A stretch of DNA of 64,000 nt from Schmidtea polychroa. Its lineage: Eukaryota. Shown in pieces: positions 19,539-63,998 of the stretch (positions within the stretch are counted from its first letter, which is position 1; every line of letters starts with the position of its first letter). The stretch spans positions 228,160,001-228,224,000 of the forward strand of contig CM097885.1 in the NCBI GenBank assembly GCA_044892525.1, read 5' to 3'. Under the pieces are notes generated by a model. It saw nothing but the letters and a program-made list of their open reading frames with translations. It had not been told where the DNA came from and ran no database searches. A program made the position numbers and the translations under genes.

Positions 19539-20479
19539 TGTTATGAGTGAAGCTTTCGATGGTATGTTCGTGTGTTTGTACGTATAAGCATAATTAGTAA
19601 AAAAGTATGCTGGTATATAGTTATATGTATATATTATATTTATGTTAGTAGATGCGTGTGTGTCAAGAGGTTTGAAGAGCCCAGCCGAGTCACCAGTAAA
19701 TAATCTGTCTCGGGACAGCTGGGGTGAATGTGTGTAATATGGCTACAAATAAAAATTCGAGAAATATTAACAAATAAAATACAAATAACTTAATTAAACA
19801 AATTTTATTAACAAATAGAACTAATTAAGAGACCTGAAATCTCGAATCGTAAGGACTTTGTAATATTCTTTTCTAATCTTTTCCTGGACTTGTTTAATAG
19901 AATTCTTTTTAATCTTCTTTTGATAGAGTCAATTAAATGACTTTAAATCTCGAATCTTAAGGACTCAGTAATATTCTTTTCAAATCTTTTTCTAGACTTG
20001 TTTTGTAGAATCCTTTTTAATCTTCTTCTGACAGAACAAATTAGTTGACCTGAGATCTCAAATCGTAAGGACTTTGTCATATCCTTTTCTAATCTTGTTC
20101 TGAACTTGTTTTATTGAATTCTTTTTAATCTTCTTCTGATCTTGTTTTATAATATTATTTTTGATCCTTTTCCAAACTAATCTTATAATATTCTTTTTTA
20201 TCTTTTCCTGAACTAGTTTTATAATATTCTTTTCAATTTCCTTCTGAATTTGTTCTATGGTATTCTTTTCTTAATTTTGGTTGTCCAAATGTTTATTCGA
20301 TTTATTTATTGATTTTTTTCTTTTTTTCAATTTTCTATAGCGATAATTAACTATGGTAAATTATCGTTATATAGTTTTTTTTAAATTTTTTTCCTACGTG
20401 TAACAGGTGGTGGATAAAATTAAAATCCGCATTAAATTATAATAAACAATAAAAAAATATAATATCACAATACATTACA
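19539..20479 (-). mobile_element. Solo LTR (941 bp) related to the LTR at about 60233-61017
   Basis: Element strand begins TGTAATGTATTGTGAT (identical to the 61017 LTR start) and ends ...ATAACA. It shares two structured blocks with that LTR, and its removal restores the TRIC-like frame. Confidence 0.8.
19831..20260. repeat. Three 108-bp tandem units plus 36-bp subunits inside the solo LTR
   Basis: Units start at 19831, 19939 and 20047 (GAC[CT]T[GT]A[AG]ATCTC[GA]AATC...), followed by shorter TCTTTT..TGAACT.GTTTTATAATATT repeats. Confidence 0.85.
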
Positions 20480-46734: not shown

Positions 46735-47013
46735 TGTGAGGCGTTTTGTAATTTGTATTTAAATAATGGTATGATGTTGTGTATGTTTGATTGCATGCTG
46801 AAATCCTTACTTATACATTAATTATTATTTTTTAGAAACTCCTCAAACAAATTAACGTTATAATTTGTTTTAATAATATTTATGTTTTTGATTTTGTGTT
46901 TTTTTAGAAACTCCTCAAACAAATTAACCTTATAATTTGTTTTAATAATATTTGTGTTTTTTAATAAACGTGTTTTTAGTTAGCTATTAATACCCGTAGC
47001 TCTGTGGCAAATA
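46735..47013 (+). repeat. 5' LTR (279 bp, with an internal ~72-bp duplication)
   Basis: Near-identical to 51132-51343 apart from the duplicated block (copies at 46831 and 46903). Confidence 0.9.
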
Positions 47014-48018
47014 TGGCGACCACGATTGCAAATTTTATCAAATCACCAGAAACATATGACATGGATTCAGACATGGAAGATTTTATCTTAGAAACGAAAC
47101 GATTCTTCGAGATGACAAATATTGTCGATGAATACAGAAGCAAATTCGTCAAAGCTTTTCTATCAATCAATTCAACGAAGAAATATTATACAGAAAGATT
47201 AAGAAACGCTTTTGCTAAGAACAGAAGTCTTATCGATGATCTCAGCAAAGCGCTAAATTATCGTCAAGGAAATAAGGCTGCCGAAGAATTCTGCTCAAAA
47301 ATTGAGAAACTTGCAAAAAATATTTTGAAGCATAAACTTGATGAAGAAGAACTAAAGAAATTTTTGCTATTCAATTTGCTTGAAGATAAAGAAGTTAAAA
47401 AAGATCTCAAAATGCAAGATTTAAAATCATTTTATGAAATGAAAGAAAGATTAAAGAGACACGATCAAGTTTCAAAAGAAATTAATGTATTTCATGCTGA
47501 TGTAGCTTCAATGAATAAAACACAACGCTAAGCTGATGCTGTTAAGAAGAGCTTACCAAGATATAGTTATGATAACAGATCAATTCGAGAACGAGAAGCT
47601 AATCCCAGATTCAAAGATGAATATACAAGAGAACCTCAGCATAATCCAAGATTCAAAGGCGATCTTACCAGAGAACATCGATATGCTATTTCAAATGGAT
47701 GGAAACCTATGAATAGAAGTAAGCCTTATAATACCAGGGAATTTCATTCGCGAGATCATGTCCGAACAAACCAAATTTTGCGATGTTGGGCGTGCCACGA
47801 AGAAGGTCATAAAAGATCTGAATGCCCCAATATTCAATGTGCCCATTGTAAAAGATCTGGACATTTCAAACATCAGTTCCATGAGGAAATATCCAGGCAG
47901 ACGTCGAAAATTCCATAAATCAGTGGCTGCATTCGGTGACGAGGATCCAGAGGCTGATTTTGAGTACCAAAATGGGAATGCTCCACCACATGAGGAGGTG
48001 ATCGGAGCAATAAATTAA
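47013..48018 (+). pseudogene. gag: gag with two zinc knuckles (one premature stop, one frameshift)
   Basis: ATG at 47013; in-frame TAA at 47529-47531; CWACHEEGHKRSEC and CAHCKRSGHFKHQF (last C lost). Confidence 0.85.
47014..47025 (+). promoter_or_regulatory. Primer-binding site TGGCGACCACGA, probably tRNA-Arg(UCG)
   Basis: Directly follows the 5' LTR; complementary to a tRNA 3' end ...UCGUGGUCG-CCA as recalled for eukaryotic tRNA-Arg(UCG). Confidence 0.7.
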
Positions 48019-48235
48019 AGGTAATTAATGATATGAGTAAGGGTTGTATGATTTTGAATTATTGTGATAGTTTGAATGATAACTGTTGTGATGGTGTTTT
48101 TGATTATAGAAATTATATTAATATATAAATTAATAAATTTTGTATGGATGAAGTTTTATAGACCCACCCCTAACGTCAAATGAACTAAATGTTCTTAATC
48201 GTGATAAACTGAATGATATAATAGTATACGATAAA

Positions 48236-51136
48236 ATGCATGGAAGGCCCAGTGTTATCGTGATGATTAATAATGTAAAATTAGTATGCCTATTAGATAC
48301 TGGAGCTAAAATAAGTGTGATTGATTATAATATTTTTAAAAAACTTGGAAATTTGAATATGACTACAAGTAATTTAAAATATAGATGTGCGAATGATAGC
48401 CCGATTGAAATTTGCGGTAAAACTTTATTAAATGTAAAAGTTGATAAAATTTCTGATATTAAAAAAGTAGAATTCGTTGTAGCCAAAGATATAAACCCAA
48501 AGTTAATAGGAGGTATAGATTTTCTCGAAAGATTTGGAATGCAATTGCAAATAGAAAACCGTACAGACGAAATAAATACAATTATGGAAAATTCATTTAA
48601 TAACCACATAAGTGAAGATAAGATAATAAATAATTTAATTTCCACGTTCGACGGTATTTTTATGAAACATAAATGGGATGTTGGGAAAACCGAACTATTA
48701 AAGCATGAAATACTTACTAAAGGTAGTCCGATTGTAATAAACCCAAGACGACAACCTATACATTTAATAGAAAAAATTGAAGAAAATATTCAAGAAATGT
48801 TGAAATATGGCATTATATCAGAATGTACATCTCCTTGGAATTCTCCATTAGTATGTGTTAAAAAGAAAAACATTAGTGATATAAGAATATGCTTGGACTA
48901 CCGTGCTTTAAATAATATAACCGAAAGACCGATTTTTCCCATTCCAAATACTGGTGAATTATTAGATATTCTTAACGGAGCAAAGTTTTTCTCGACAATT
49001 GATTTAGGCAATGCTTATTATCAAGTAGAACTCGATGATGCATCAAAATTGAAAACAGCATTTCGACAAAAAGCAAGCAATATTACTTTAACAGAATGCC
49101 ATTTGGAATAGCAGCCGCACCAGGCAACATTTCAAAGACTTATGAATTTGGTTCTTGGAGAATTAAATTGGAATGGAACAATTGTATATCTGGATGATAT
49201 CCTTATATTTTCAAAGACATTGAATGAACATTATAGTACCATTGAAAAGGTTTTTCAAAAGATTAAATTAGCAAATCTTAAAATAAGTCCAGCAAAATGT
49301 TAATTCAAAAGGAAAGAAGTAAAATTTTTGGGTCATATCATTGGTGAAGATGGAATACGTACGGATGAAAGAAAGATTGAAACTATTAAATATTTTGAAA
49401 GACCTAAATGCGTAAAAAGTTTGAGAGGATTTTAGGCTTGGCAAATTACTATCGCAGATTTATAGAAAATTACACCAAAGATTCCAAAGTATTAGAAGCG
49501 TTATGCGGAAGTAAACAAAAGAAGCATATGTGGACTGATGAGTGTGAAACTTCATTTAGAATTTTAAAACTGAAATTGACGTCTACACCTGTATTGAAGT
49601 TCCCAGATTTTTCTAAGCCATTCATTTTGGATACAGATGCAAGTTTTGACCGCATTGGTGCTGTTCTGTCTCAAAAAGATGGAAGTAATCGCATATGGAT
49701 CCCGAGCTATGAATAAACACGAGTTGGGTTATTGTATAACAAGAAATGAATTACTATCTATATTTTATTTTACTGGTCATTTTAAGCATTATCTATATGG
49801 TAAAAAGTTTATTTTGAGGACGGATCACAAAGCCATTACATTTATGATGAAGACAAAGAAAGCTATTACCCCACAATTTCAAACTTGGATTAACAATCTT
49901 AGTGGTCTGGACATGGAGATTCAATACAGAAAAGGTGATAACCACAATAATGCCGACACTTTATCTAGAAAAGAATGTGAAACATGTGTTCAATGTCAAA
50001 TGATTCATGAAAATCCTAAAATGGGTAAATTAAAAACAAGATTGTTGACACTGATGACTGATAATATTGAAAATATATGGCAAAAGAACTCGAAAGAAAT
50101 TGAAAATATAAAAGAAAATATTAGTTTGATGCCAGATAAAACATTTTTTAAATATGTCAACGGCGTGATTATGACAAATAATAATAAAATTTGAATTCCA
50201 GAAGAAAACAAGTCTGAATTCATCATAGAATATCATAAAAAGCTCTGTCACGCGGGTGCTAATAAAGTAAAAATTTATGTATCAAACAATTTTGATATGA
50301 AAGATTTGGAGCAATCTATTCGTAATGTTGTACAATCCTGTGAAAACTGTCAGAAAAGAAAGGTTGATACAACTAAAACAAAAGAAGAAATAATTTGCAA
50401 AAGTGATTCGAAATTATTTGAAACAATCTATGTAGATTTTTGTGATCCATTACAACTTGCAATGAAAGGAGAAAGATATATTCTTGGGATTATAGATCAT
50501 CATAGTAAGTTTATTTCTTTACATACAGTGAAATCGCAAGATGAAAAAACAGTGGTAAGATTACTGAAAGAAGAGTGGATAATGAAGTTTGGAGCACCAA
50601 GGATAATAAACTGTGACAGAGGTAAATCATTTGAATCAAAGCTAATGAAAGATTTTGCAGAATTCCACAATATTGAAATTAATTATTCAAGTCCATATCA
50701 TCACTCAGCAAATGGACTGATTGAGAGACAATTCCATACAATTAGAGATGCAATACAGATAACACTCAAAGATAAAAGACATAAATCATGGGTAGATGTT
50801 CTTCCCGAAGTTCAGTTTATGTTGAATTCAACTTTTCAAAAAACTATTAGGAAGACTCCAGCTGAAATGGTGTTTGGGAAAAAGATTTATAGTGAATGGT
50901 TCTCAGAGATTGTGGAAGAAGAAAAAATCAATCAGGCGACAAATCGCGAATTTCAAATTGGAGATTGCGTATTGATCAAAGTAAATGTTCGAAATAAAGG
51001 TGATAACAGATACATGGGTCCAGGTGTGATTACTAAAAAGATTCATGATCGAAGTTATGAAATAAAATTGGAAAATGGAAGTTCCGTCAATAGAAATATT
51101 GAGTGGTTAAAGGTTTTCAAAAAGGGGGGGATGTGA
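48236..51136 (+). pseudogene. pol: pol (protease-RT-RNase H-integrase), several frameshifts and stops
   Basis: LLDTGA protease; CLDYRALN, IDLGNAYYQ and VYLDD RT; LDTDAS and LRTDHKAI RNase H; HHCC zinc finger and YVDF / CDRG / NGLIER integrase. Confidence 0.95.
51118..51131 (+). promoter_or_regulatory. Polypurine tract
   Basis: AAAAAAGGGGGGGA-type purine run immediately before the 3' LTR TGTGAG. Confidence 0.85.
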
Positions 51137-51343
51137 GGCGTTTTGTAATTTGTATTTAAATAATGGTATGATGTTGTGTATGTTTGATTGTATGCTGAAA
51201 TCCTTACTTATACATTAATTATTATTTTTTAGAAACTCCTCAAACAAATTAACGTTATAATTTGTTTTAATAATATTTGTGTTTTTAATAAACGTGTTTT
51301 AGTTATGGATTCTATTAATACCCGTAGCTCTGTGGCTAATACA
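51132..51343 (+). repeat. 3' LTR (212 bp)
   Basis: TG...CA termini; AATAAA present; matches the 5' LTR. Confidence 0.9.
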
Positions 51344-60232: not shown

Positions 60233-61017
60233 TGTTAGGTTAATTGTTGTATTATTATATTATTGTGGTGTGCTATGCTAGAAATTTGAAGGACCCGATA
60301 GAGTCACCGGTAAGAAAAATGTGTTGGGACTATCGGGGTGCGTGTTGTGTAACAATAAAGCAAATAAAAATAATATAAACAATAGTATATTAATCTAAAA
60401 CTTTTATTTAACCAAATTAAAAAACCTTGAGTGAGGATAGAAAAGTATATCAATTGTCTCTTGACTCGATTTTAATAGTTGGGTATTCGTTCCTTATTTT
60501 CGAATTTATATTTCTATTTAGTTTTCTTTTTGATTGTTTAGGGAATATAAGAATAGGTAATGGATGTTGTTGTAGAATTTGAACTGAACAGGAATTTGGT
60601 AGGAAAGTATATCAGTTGTCACTTGTTACAAAATTATCGGTTGTGTATTTGTCTTTTTCTATTTTCTTGGGGTCTATATTTCTGTTTAGTTTTCTTTTCG
60701 ATCGTTCAAAGAGTACGGGAAAGAAAATATCTTCCAATTCTTCAATTTAATATAGCGCTGATAATTCTAATTCTTCAGTTGTTCAATTTGATTTAATCTT
60801 CTGGAGTTTTTGTTTTTTTTAAAATTTTCTTATTGATTTTATTAATTTGTCATTTTTCTATAGTGATAATTTACTATGGTAAATTATCACTATATAGTTT
60901 ATTTATTTTTTTAAATAAAATAAAAACCTTCTCCACGTACAGCGTGCAGAATTGTTTATTACATTCATACAATGTGATTAACAAAACCAAAAAAACAGAG
61001 AATCACAATACATTACA
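60233..61017 (-). repeat. 3' LTR of the gypsy element at the window end (left boundary approximate)
   Basis: Starts TGTAATGTATTGTGAT after the PPT; shares blocks with the solo LTR at 19539-20479; candidate end ...CCTAACA at 60233. Confidence 0.7.
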
Positions 61018-61020
61018 GAA

Positions 61021-61031
61021 CTTCCCCCTTT
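61021..61031 (-). promoter_or_regulatory. Polypurine tract AAAGGGGGAAG
   Basis: 3 nt upstream of the LTR TGT on the minus strand. Confidence 0.8.
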
Positions 61032-61193: not shown

Positions 61194-63998
61194 TTATTTG
61201 AGGCAATCGCTATAACGCTTTTTGTATTCTGGTGAGATTGTTGTGTTCTTGTCAAAAATTTTTGTTAAGTCTTTTTCGCTGAATCTGATGTGTTTCTGGT
61301 TTGTCTGTATTTCTGTTCGTTCTTGAGTTTTGTACTTTGGGTGGTTGTTTTCGTGATATGGTTTTAATCTGCGTATGTTTATTTTGATTTGTTTATTGTG
61401 TTTTAAAATTGTGCCAACGTTTTTATACATATTTAACAGTTTGTATGGGCCTTCGTACTTTGTTTCAAATCCGCTAGTGAAGGGTTTCTTTACTAAAACC
61501 ATGTCTATTATTAGTTCTGTTTGGTTTTGGGTTTTATTATTATTTTTGTTTTTTAGAATACTTTTTAGTATGGGTATTTGTGATTCTTTGGCGGTAGTTT
61601 TTATCTTGTTTTCGTTTTCGTCCTTTAAGTTTGGTAGGTTTGTATGGTGTCCAAAAACTGATTGGCTAGGGCTTTTGTTGTTTAGGCTTGAAGGGTTGTT
61701 TCGTAATCCTATTAGTATTTCTGGTAATTTTTCTAACCAGTTGTTGTTATTATTTGTTTTTGTTCTGATTGCTTGTTTTAATGATCGGTGTAATCTCTCG
61801 ACTTTTCCGTTTGATTGTGGATTGTATGCTGTTGTTCTGGTTTTGTTGATGTTATATTTGTTGCAAAGTCCTTTGAAAATGTCGGATTCAAATTGCCTAC
61901 CCTGATCGCTGATTATTGTCTTTGGGCAGCCATACCGGGCGAACCAGTTTAATTCTAATTTACTGCATATTTTTGCTGCTGATATTTCCTTTATGGGAAT
62001 GGCTTCGAACCAATTTGTTTTTCGATCTATTATAGTTAATAAGTACTTGTGTTTATTATTTGGAGGTAGAGGGCCGACTATGTCGATATGTATCGTTTCG
62101 AACGGTTCAGAACTTGGGAATTGTACAATTGTTGTTTTGAATTGTTTTGTTGTTATTTTATTCTTTTGACACTGTGGGCAATTTTTTACGAATGTTTTTA
62201 CGTCCCTTCTCATATAAGGCCAAACAACTTTGGTATGCAGAAGTTCGTATGTGGCTTTGTTTCCCGGATGGTAGATGTTGTGGTATTTTTGGAGGTATTG
62301 ATCGCGCAGTTCTGCTGGTACTACAATCCTTTTGTTATTGTCATTTGAAGTGTCGTACCATATGCCGTCTATTTCTTCCAGATGGAGTGAATTCATCCTT
62401 GGAGTTTCGATTGTTGTTTCTTTTTGTTTAGTTTTTAACTTTTCTAACTCTATGATGGGTGTTATGTTAAGTGCATTTATGTCAGTTTCTATTCTTGATA
62501 ATGCATCTGCACTTATGTTAGCAGAACCTGCTATGTATTTTATTTTGCAATTAAATTGTGAAATATAGTTTAATTGTCTTATTTGTCTCGGTGAAGGATT
62601 TTTCATGTTCATTGCGTTTATTAAGGGTTTATGGTCGGTATACACTTCGAAATCTTTTCCTTCCAAAAAGTATTGGAAATGTCTGATTGTATCATGTAAC
62701 GCTAATAACTCCCTGTCAAAAGTGGAGTATCTCATTTGGTGAGTTTTGAGTTTCTTTGAGAAGAAGGCTATTGGTCTTTTTTCGTTATTTTCTTCTTGGA
62801 ATATCGTTCCGCCCATTGCTACTCCCGAACAATCTGTGTTGACTATGTATGGTAAATCTTGGTTGGGATAGTTTAGGATGCTTGCATTTTTCAGATTTTC
62901 TTTTGCCTGCTCGAACGCTGTTATTAGTTTTTCGTTCCAATCTATTTTGATGTTTCTCTTTATTTTGTTCAGTTCATTGAGAGGGGCTAGCATTTCACTA
63001 CATCTTGGTATGTATTTGTGATAGAAATTGATCATTCCAAGGAAACGTCTTAGCTCTTTAGTAGTTTTGGGTAGGGGGTAATTTTTGATTGCTTTGATTT
63101 TGTCGTCTAAAGGTCTTGTTCCGTTTTCGTTTAACATGTGTCCCAGGAATTTTATTTCTGTTTTCAGAAATTCACATTTTTTTATGTTAATTTTTAGCTC
63201 GTGTTTGCTTAATATTTCGAACACATTTTTAATATTTTGTATATGTTCTGTTTTGTTTGCAGATGCTATCAGAATGTCGTCAAGGTATGCGACTGTGTTC
63301 TGTTGATTTCGTAATATTTGGTCCATGAAGCGTTGGAAAGTGGCTGCAGCATTTTTTAATCCGAAAGGCATTTTGTTATACTCGAACAGTCCTATGGGTG
63401 TGATGATTGCTGTTTTCTTTATGTCTTCAGTTCTGACGGGAATTTGATGATAGGCTTTTTGTAAATCGATTTTGCTGAAAATTTTGGGTTTGTTAAATCT
63501 GTTGATGATATCGTTTATTATTGGGATTGGGTATTTGTCGGCTGTTGTGATATTGTTTAATGCTCTGTAGTCTCCGCAGGCTCGCCATTCGCCGTTTGCC
63601 TTTTCTTTAAGCATGAGGGCTGATGACCAGTTTGAGTTTGAGTGTTTGACGATTTGATTTTCTAGTAGTTCGTCGAATATTTTCTTAGTTATCTCGAGTT
63701 TATTTTTGTCTAACTGTCTGACTTTTGCATGGACTGGGTTTCCGTTGCTAATTATTATGTGTTCGGTTATGCATTTGGTGTTATTGTTTGCTTCTAATTT
63801 ATTAGTTATATTTGCTACATTTTGTATCAGTTTTGTGATTTCGTTAGGTATGTGCCAGTTTGTTTCTGTTTTATTTGTTTTTTCTTCACCGTTTTGGGCT
63901 GTTATTACTCCGATGTCACAATTGATTTGTTTTTTTGATTGTTTATTTTTGTGGTGTATGTCATTTGAATTGTTTGGTATGACTTTTCCATTCTTACA
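61194..63998 (-). CDS. pol: Uninterrupted Ty3/gypsy pol (RT-RNase H-integrase), CsRn1-like; open to the window edge
   Basis: The track ORF 61194-63614 extends upstream without a stop (hand-translated ...EHIIISNGNPVHAKVRQL...SNWSSALM). Motifs WRACGDYRALN, YLDD, TDCS, YTDHKPL, H..H/C..C and HIDIVGPLP / DQGRQFES / NGKVER. Confidence 0.95.
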   Translation of the reverse strand, partial: CKNGKVIPNNSNDIHHKNKQSKKQINCDIGVITAQNGEEKTNKTETNWHIPNEITKLIQNVANITNKLEANNNTKCITEHIIISNGNPVHAKVRQLDKNKLEITKKIFDELLENQIVKHSNSNWSSALMLKEKANGEWRACGDYRALNNITTADKYPIPIINDIINRFNKPKIFSKIDLQKAYHQIPVRTEDIKKTAIITPIGLFEYNKMPFGLKNAAATFQRFMDQILRNQQNTVAYLDDILIASANKTEHIQNIKNVFEILSKHELKINIKKCEFLKTEIKFLGHMLNENGTRPLDDKIKAIKNYPLPKTTKELRRFLGMINFYHKYIPRCSEMLAPLNELNKIKRNIKIDWNEKLITAFEQAKENLKNASILNYPNQDLPYIVNTDCSGVAMGGTIFQEENNEKRPIAFFSKKLKTHQMRYSTFDRELLALHDTIRHFQYFLEGKDFEVYTDHKPLINAMNMKNPSPRQIRQLNYISQFNCKIKYIAGSANISADALSRIETDINALNITPIIELEKLKTKQKETTIETPRMNSLHLEEIDGIWYDTSNDNNKRIVVPAELRDQYLQKYHNIYHPGNKATYELLHTKVVWPYMRRDVKTFVKNCPQCQKNKITTKQFKTTIVQFPSSEPFETIHIDIVGPLPPNNKHKYLLTIIDRKTNWFEAIPIKEISAAKICSKLELNWFARYGCPKTIISDQGRQFESDIFKGLCNKYNINKTRTTAYNPQSNGKVERLHRSLKQAIRTKTNNNNNWLEKLPEILIGLRNNPSSLNNKSPSQSVFGHHTNLPNLKDENENKIKTTAKESQIPILKSILKNKNNNKTQNQTELIIDMVLVKKPFTSGFETKYEGPYKLLNMYKNVGTILKHNKQIKINIRRLKPYHENNHPKYKTQERTEIQTNQKHIRFSEKDLTKIFDKNTTISPEYKKRYSDCLK

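What the first reader, a model, noticed from the sequence alone, without database searches (positions are those of the whole stretch)
19680..19723. Covarying 44-nt RNA stem-loop conserved between two divergent LTRs (partner at 60294-60337)
On the element (minus) strand the copies align without gaps: CCCAGCU-GUCCC-GAGACAGAUUAUUUA-CUGGUGACUC-GGCUGGG and CCCGAUA-GUCCC-AACACAUUUUUCUUA-CCGGUGACUC-UAUCGGG. Four consecutive pairs of the 7-bp outer stem differ yet still pair (A-U/G-C/C-G/U.G versus G-C/A-U/U-A/A-U). The inner GUCCC and GGUGACUC are invariant and can pair with a bulged U and a UC bulge, and the 15-nt loop varies in sequence but not length. The U.G pair works only on the sense strand, which points to RNA. 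The surrounding LTR is otherwise poorly alignable. I cannot match it to hammerhead, twister, HDV-like, pistol or hatchet cores. It is a candidate undescribed R/U5 cis-element for packaging, dimerisation, 3'-end formation (no clear AAUAAA nearby) or primer handling; (U/C)GGUGAC resembles the tRNA-Trp PBS used by CsRn1-type elements.
Basis: partly seen in the sequence, partly recalled or inferred. Interest (0 to 1): 0.8.

Follow-up and report, generated by a model that had tools for sequence, protein, structure and literature searches.

The report
Conserved hairpin in retrotransposon LTR end
A small hairpin with a fixed core and a stem that changes in matched pairs sits near the end of the terminal repeats of thousands of jumping-gene copies in this animal genome, and it likely serves as a handle on the element's own RNA for packaging or copying, though neither its strand nor its job is shown.

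Summary
Both hairpins are real. They are two of over 2,200 copies in the LTRs of a CsRn1-like Gypsy group in a planarian-like genome. Outer pairs 4 and 5 occur in all four Watson-Crick combinations (1538, 585, 108, 10 copies); mismatched forms are rare (29-50 each). A tree-based test of independence had too little power. Several first-reader details fail. Pairs 6-7 are often unpaired. The loop is 12-20 nt. The bulge is U or A. AATAAA lies 78-93 nt upstream, which puts the hairpin in predicted U5. The real primer site is a tRNA-Leu type further downstream, not Trp. G-U and A-C forms are equally common (29:30, 50:49), so nothing favours RNA over single-stranded DNA. No Rfam family or known ribozyme core matches. 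Best reading (0.4): a protein-binding cis-element of the genomic RNA, probably for the Gag zinc knuckle, used in packaging or starting reverse transcription. It is an undescribed motif of a known kind.

The parts
19680..19723 (-). Hairpin, copy A (7-bp outer stem; cores at 19716-19712 and 19694-19689)
60294..60337 (-). Hairpin, copy B (cores at 60330-60326 and 60308-60303)
19539..20479 (-). LTR A, an older isolated LTR; 3' end inferred from relatives, no clean target-site duplication
60233..61017 (-). LTR B, 785 bp, 3' LTR of a full-length Gypsy copy; identical 5' LTR outside the window; 5-bp target-site duplication
19804..19809 (-). AATAAA, predicted poly(A) signal of LTR A, followed by a U/GU-rich tract
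60403..60408 (-). AATAAA, predicted poly(A) signal of LTR B, followed by a U/GU-rich tract
19832..19835 (-). AGGT motif before the poly(A) signal (initiator-like or weak donor-like; role unknown)
60424..60427 (-). AGGT motif before the poly(A) signal
61021..61031 (-). Polypurine tract before LTR B
61197..63998 (-). pol frame (RT, RNase H, integrase with GPY), open to the window edge
60859..60894 (-). Second, longer inverted repeat (16 bp) near the LTR 5' end, copy B
20336..20371 (-). Same inverted repeat in LTR A, one pair changed on both sides, two mismatches

Best explanation
The hairpin is a conserved fold-back element in the predicted U5 part of the LTR of a Gypsy retrotransposon group, and it likely works in the element's genomic RNA as a protein-binding handle for packaging or for starting reverse transcription. 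Shown: the position (75-108 nt after AATAAA in most LTRs, 57-115 nt before the primer site), a 5-bp outer stem kept Watson-Crick, a conserved GUC/GAC and CC/GG core around a U-or-A bulge, and a U-rich loop of free length. Inferred: cleavage follows AATAAA, so the mature RNA would carry the hairpin once, at its 5' end. The outer stem would hold a weakly paired GG(U/A)G, and the Gag zinc knuckle would open and bind its guanines.
For: Pairs 4 and 5 occur as GA/TC 1538, AG/CT 585, AA/TT 108 and GG/CC 10, against 29-50 for each wobble or mismatch class. Covariation score 0.395 against 0.015-0.07 for slid registers. With the core left free, the bulge varies in 21 of 100 listed copies and each paired position in 1-7 (counted by eye). 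Free loop length fits a single strand better than a spaced DNA site. In folds of 25 leaders the outer stem is probable in 20 and the core in 18. Of 30 places picked by primer site alone, 24 carry it; 5 of the 6 others have a different leader. It is shared across Pol types of 58-100% and Gag types of about 52-98% identity whose zinc knuckle is nearly unchanged. HIV-1 NC binds guanines of GGAG and GGUG loops (PMC3247676, passages). The Ty3 zinc finger is critical for packaging (PMC4974528, passages).
Against: No strand signal: G-U against A-C 29:30 and 50:49; the sense fold is more stable in only 45 of 103. The core shows no two-sided change in 100 listed copies, so its pairing rests on folding and the free bulge alone. 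The tree test found 1-2 independent contrasts on supported branches and cannot reach significance. HIV's GGAG and GGUG are exposed tetraloops; here they are predicted paired. A conserved knuckle is expected in any Gag. Transcript ends were not mapped, so the U5 placement is a prediction. Leaders are nearly identical across families, so recombination may spread the motif.
Confidence: 0.4

Rival explanations
1. The fold acts in the first DNA copy (minus-strand strong-stop DNA) or as a pause for reverse transcriptase that helps strand transfer.
For: It lies in the first 60-160 nt copied from the primer site. Constrained pairs are strictly Watson-Crick with no G-U lineage, and both strands fold equally.
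Against: The DNA fold is weak (about -5 kcal/mol). A pause would not obviously need a fixed core sequence or the conserved ACA and U-run in the loop.
Confidence: 0.2
2. It controls transcription or poly(A) choice, as a downstream element of the nascent RNA or a promoter-proximal site, together with the A(A/G)GT and AATAAA motifs.
For: Fixed order A(A/G)GT, AATAAA, U-rich tract, hairpin: 66 of 103 have AATAAA 55-115 nt upstream (controls 15 and 28), and 52 of those 66 have A(A/G)GT before it (controls 10-19). Foamy viruses use a donor before the poly(A) signal plus RNA structure (PMC3694450, abstract).
Against: The hairpin does not contain or mask AATAAA. It is identical in both LTRs, so alone it cannot tell them apart. 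The donor-like motif has G at +5 in only 5 of 52. Free loop length argues against a spaced DNA site.
Confidence: 0.2
3. The pairing is a by-product: templated repair of an inverted repeat makes matched changes, and recombination spreads one block among families.
For: Strict Watson-Crick changes without G-U lineages; LTR and internal parts are mosaic; few independent events could be shown. Templated repair of quasi-palindromes is recalled, not from a call.
Against: The motif is an island between spacers that differ in length and sequence. Repair should remove the two bulges and the mismatches at pairs 6-7, yet they persist.
Confidence: 0.12
4. It is a small self-cleaving ribozyme of a new class.
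For: A fixed core with bulges inside a covarying stem and a free loop is the general look of such RNAs.
Against: No hammerhead, pistol, twister-sister or hairpin core on the sense strand (0-2 of 103), a twister-like word in 7 of 103, and no HDV-like P1 partner above control (4 against 4 of 103). A cut in U5 would separate R from the primer site (inference).
Confidence: 0.04

Closest known systems
HIV-1 SL3 (Psi, GGAG) and SL2 (SD, GGUG) nucleocapsid-binding hairpins (PMC3247676, passages)
   Same: The 3' core reads GGAG or GGUG; the element encodes a zinc-knuckle Gag; the hairpin lies in the predicted 5' region of the genomic RNA.
   Different: In HIV these are tetraloops downstream of the primer site, bound by two CCHC knuckles. 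Here the motif is upstream of the primer site, predicted weakly paired, and Gag has one CHCC knuckle. Binding is untested.
U5-IR stem-loop of retroviruses and the similar Tf1 structure (Lin and Levin 1998; title seen only in the reference list of PMC4974528; content recalled)
   Same: A hairpin in U5 near the primer site of an LTR retroelement.
   Different: As recalled, those lie next to the primer site. This one is 57-115 nt away, shows no complementarity to the 3' half of the primer tRNA above shuffles, and has a sequence-fixed core.
CsRn1 lineage of Ty3/Gypsy (features from PMC3630058, passage)
   Same: CHCC-type Gag motif and GPY in integrase.
   Different: tRNA-Leu-type primer site instead of Trp; 5-bp instead of 4-bp target-site duplication. 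The LTR survey PMC3601003 (passages and part 1 of section 8) describes no such hairpin; its supplements were not read.
Foamy virus LTR (PMC3694450, abstract)
   Same: A GT-containing motif just before the poly(A) signal inside the LTR.
   Different: The motif here fits U1 poorly and may be an initiator; the hairpin lies downstream and does not cover it.

Membership tests
CsRn1 lineage (host element) | CHCC Gag motif | tested here: met
   C-X2-H-X9-C-X3-C in 17 of 18 loci examined
CsRn1 lineage (host element) | GPY motif at the integrase 3' end | tested here: met
   GPY in the window's pol frame
CsRn1 lineage (host element) | Primer site complementary to tRNA-Trp | tested here: not met
   The site matches 12 nt (up to 18 in a few loci) of a different tRNA-like 3' end in the genome. 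Its name, Leu(CAA), is recalled; ARAGORN did not call it. Trp-type pattern: 0 hits.
CsRn1 lineage (host element) | 4-bp target-site duplication | tested here: not met
   5 bp in element B
CsRn1 lineage (host element) | RT phylogeny | not tested
   No reference set was fetched; the element is called CsRn1-like only
Any Rfam family | Covariance-model match | tested here: not met
   No hit on either copy at gathering score or at E up to 10
Hammerhead, twister, twister-sister, pistol, hairpin ribozymes | Catalytic core words (recalled) | tested here: not met
   Sense strand 0-7 of 103 for the specific cores
HDV-like ribozymes | Nested double pseudoknot with a 7-bp P1 and a C..A J4/2 | tested here: not met
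   P1 partner 4 of 103, control 4; P3 42 of 103; J4/2 34 of 103
Retroviral-type packaging signal | Specific Gag/NC binding and need for packaging | not testable with these tools
   Only the GG(U/A)G word and the position are seen
RNA (rather than DNA) structure | Excess of G-U over A-C on the sense strand | tested here: inconclusive
   29:30 at pair 4 and 50:49 at pair 5, as decay would give

The most novel reading that the evidence does not exclude
The fixed core with two bulges is a compact catalytic RNA of a new class that cuts the LTR transcript in U5, in an autonomous Gypsy element.
Probability: 0.04. Interest if true: 0.85.

Novelty: new member of a known kind. Interest (0 to 1): 0.4.

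Why it matters
Structured signals at the 5' end of LTR-element RNA are mapped mainly in yeast Ty elements and retroviruses (search listings). This is a sharply defined 40-45 nt motif with thousands of natural variants that already mark the constrained positions. It gives a direct test of what a CHCC zinc knuckle recognises, and of whether one shared signal lets different Gag/Pol types package and recombine each other's RNA. It could be curated as a new RNA family. So far it is known from one genome and has no shown function.

Tried and rejected
Rfam: no hit. Viral contigs: 0 pattern hits and no Pol relative. Sequencing runs: no RNA holder listed. Contigs of four runs whose RNA nature is a guess gave no molecule ends and no listed joint at the donor-like or acceptor-like sites; 74 loose ends were not shown, so splicing, trans-splicing and transcript ends stay untested. 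Tree-based independence test: underpowered. Long-range pairing of the 5' arm with a look-alike word in the leader: probability 0.00 in all 23 of 25 folds where the word was found. Pairing with the 3' half of the primer tRNA: no better than shuffles on 60 of 103 LTRs (-22.4 against -23.1). Sm site, histone stem-loop and sense-strand U1 site: 0 of 103. A splice-donor decoy is unlikely because the A variant removes the GU. A Y RNA/Ro60 likeness (recalled) was dropped: the bulge is on the other strand and Rfam gave no hit. Paper searches listed no paper on this motif; Repbase and most subscription journals are not searchable here.

Full report
Observation. Both fold into the proposed hairpin, with z-scores of -2.0 and -3.0 on the element strand and -2.2 and -2.3 on the other. 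A covariance model finds only these two strong matches in the window. The only Rfam hit in the window is mir-753. That this points to a planarian is recalled, and agrees with earlier scan notes.

Context. Copy B lies in the 3' LTR of a full-length Gypsy element. It has a polypurine tract, identical 785-bp LTRs, a 5-bp target-site duplication, a 364-aa Gag with a CHCC knuckle and a long Pol frame. Copy A is an older isolated LTR of about 940 bp with no clean duplication. The primer site matches 12 nt of a tRNA-like 3' end present in the genome, up to 18 nt in a few loci. Its name, tRNA-Leu(CAA), is recalled. A Trp-type site pattern had no hit. CHCC and GPY fit the CsRn1 lineage; primer site and duplication length do not (PMC3630058, passage). 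I call it CsRn1-like.

Spread. One core pattern has 1759 hits against 31 in the control. A second pattern with another base in the bulge has 955 against 2. Of 30 places chosen only by primer site, 24 have the hairpin upstream. Five of the other six have a different leader, and one has the leader but an AT-rich stretch in place of the motif. Some of the 24 were in the model's training set, and two pairs are duplicates. Carriers include Pol types of 58-100% and Gag types of about 52-98% identity to B, in mosaic combinations, and their leaders are nearly identical. Divergence of Pol therefore does not date the hairpin.

Covariation. In 48 hand-picked rows, all chosen to hold the core, pairs 4 and 5 are paired in 48 and 45 rows, pair 6 in 34 and pair 7 in 18; slid registers score far lower. 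RNAalifold keeps pairs 2-5 and the core. Genome-wide exact counts for pairs 4 and 5 are GA/TC 1538, AG/CT 585, AA/TT 108 and GG/CC 10. Wobble and mismatch classes are 29 and 30 at pair 4, with a slightly tighter pattern, and 50 and 49 at pair 5. All four fully paired states exist, which needs at least three two-sided changes unless both arms recombined (inference). The AA/TT class outnumbers each single-step class. A tree of 136 rows built without the stem columns was too weak: 1-2 independent contrasts on supported branches. So the covariation is clear by counts but not shown against phylogeny. Among 17 copies with matched LTRs, 4 have seven pairs, 2 have six and 11 have five, so five pairs suffice.

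Core and loop. With the core left free (606 hits), I counted by eye in the 100 listed rows 21 changes at the bulge and 1-7 at each other core position, with no two-sided change. In 103 non-redundant LTRs out of 233 instances, the loop is 12-20 nt, has ACA at places 4-6 in 79, and ends in a U-run; the 2-nt bulge is UC in 89. The free bulge and free loop fit a single-stranded fold. Pairing of the core is predicted, not proven.

Strand. The equal G-U and A-C counts, and equal folding energies of the two strands (sense lower in 45 of 103), give no support for RNA over DNA.

Place in the LTR. AATAAA lies 55-115 nt upstream in 66 of 103 LTRs, against 15 and 28 in control windows, followed by a U/GU-rich tract. 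An A(A/G)GT motif precedes it in 52 of those 66. By the usual LTR layout (PMC3601003, section 8 part 1) this puts the hairpin in U5. No reads could test this. One contig of a run guessed to be RNA runs from the leader across the hairpin; this is a weak hint only.

Mechanism. A U5 element would be present once in the genomic RNA, before the primer site. In folds of 25 leaders with the primer site blocked, the outer stem was probable in 20 and the core in 18. The only tolerated core words are GGUG and GGAG, the two loops whose guanines HIV-1 NC binds (PMC3247676, passages). The knuckle is nearly the same in both Gag types, and the Ty3 zinc finger is critical for packaging (PMC4974528, passages). 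I give Gag recognition for packaging or initiation 0.4, action in strong-stop DNA or as an RT pause 0.2, transcription or poly(A) control 0.2, by-product 0.12 and ribozyme 0.04. Every step from position to function is inferred.

Novelty. No Rfam family, no known ribozyme core, no paper in eight searches, and no earlier scan note on like sequence. Notes on other LTR hairpins prompted the donor and tRNA tests; I did not check their own claims. The supplements of PMC3601003, which may show CsRN1 LTR profiles, and Repbase were not seen. Structured 5' signals in LTR elements are a known kind, so this is a new member, well defined but without a shown role. Interest 0.4.

Noticed in passing
window 60859-60894 and 20336-20371 (minus): A 16-bp inverted repeat with a 4-nt loop just after a TATA-like word near the LTR 5' end, shared by many families, with a two-sided change at one pair.
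   Followed up: partly
L126 minus strand, about 200 nt after the 5' LTR: The leader is nearly identical across families and occurs in two types whose hairpins differ by matched changes (seen by eye). A pyrimidine tract ending in YAG, like a splice or trans-splice acceptor, is present in 37 of 40 leaders.
   Followed up: partly
window 60424-60427 and 19832-19835: A(A/G)GT 14-36 nt before AATAAA in 52 of 66 LTRs; poor U1 match, possibly an initiator.
   Followed up: partly
L095, L121, L338: An LTR followed by about 18 nt matching the primer tRNA and then unrelated DNA; possibly integrated strong-stop products.
   Followed up: no
L126, gag/pol overlap: A G GGA AAC heptamer in the overlap suggests -1 frameshifting.
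   Followed up: no
G000:C2:73.95-74.09 Mb (L273, L274): 2272 genome hits to the tRNA 3'-end pattern, many in 733-bp tandem units with tRNA-Gly and tRNA-Gln genes nearby; the copy in L273 seems to lack its 5' half.
   Followed up: no
window 46735-51289 (plus): A second, unrelated LTR element with broken pol frames and short LTRs; it lacks the hairpin.
   Followed up: no
window 32737-32798 (minus): mir-753 precursor.
   Followed up: no
window 19817-20265: LTR A holds 36- and 108-nt tandem repeats in its variable middle.
   Followed up: no
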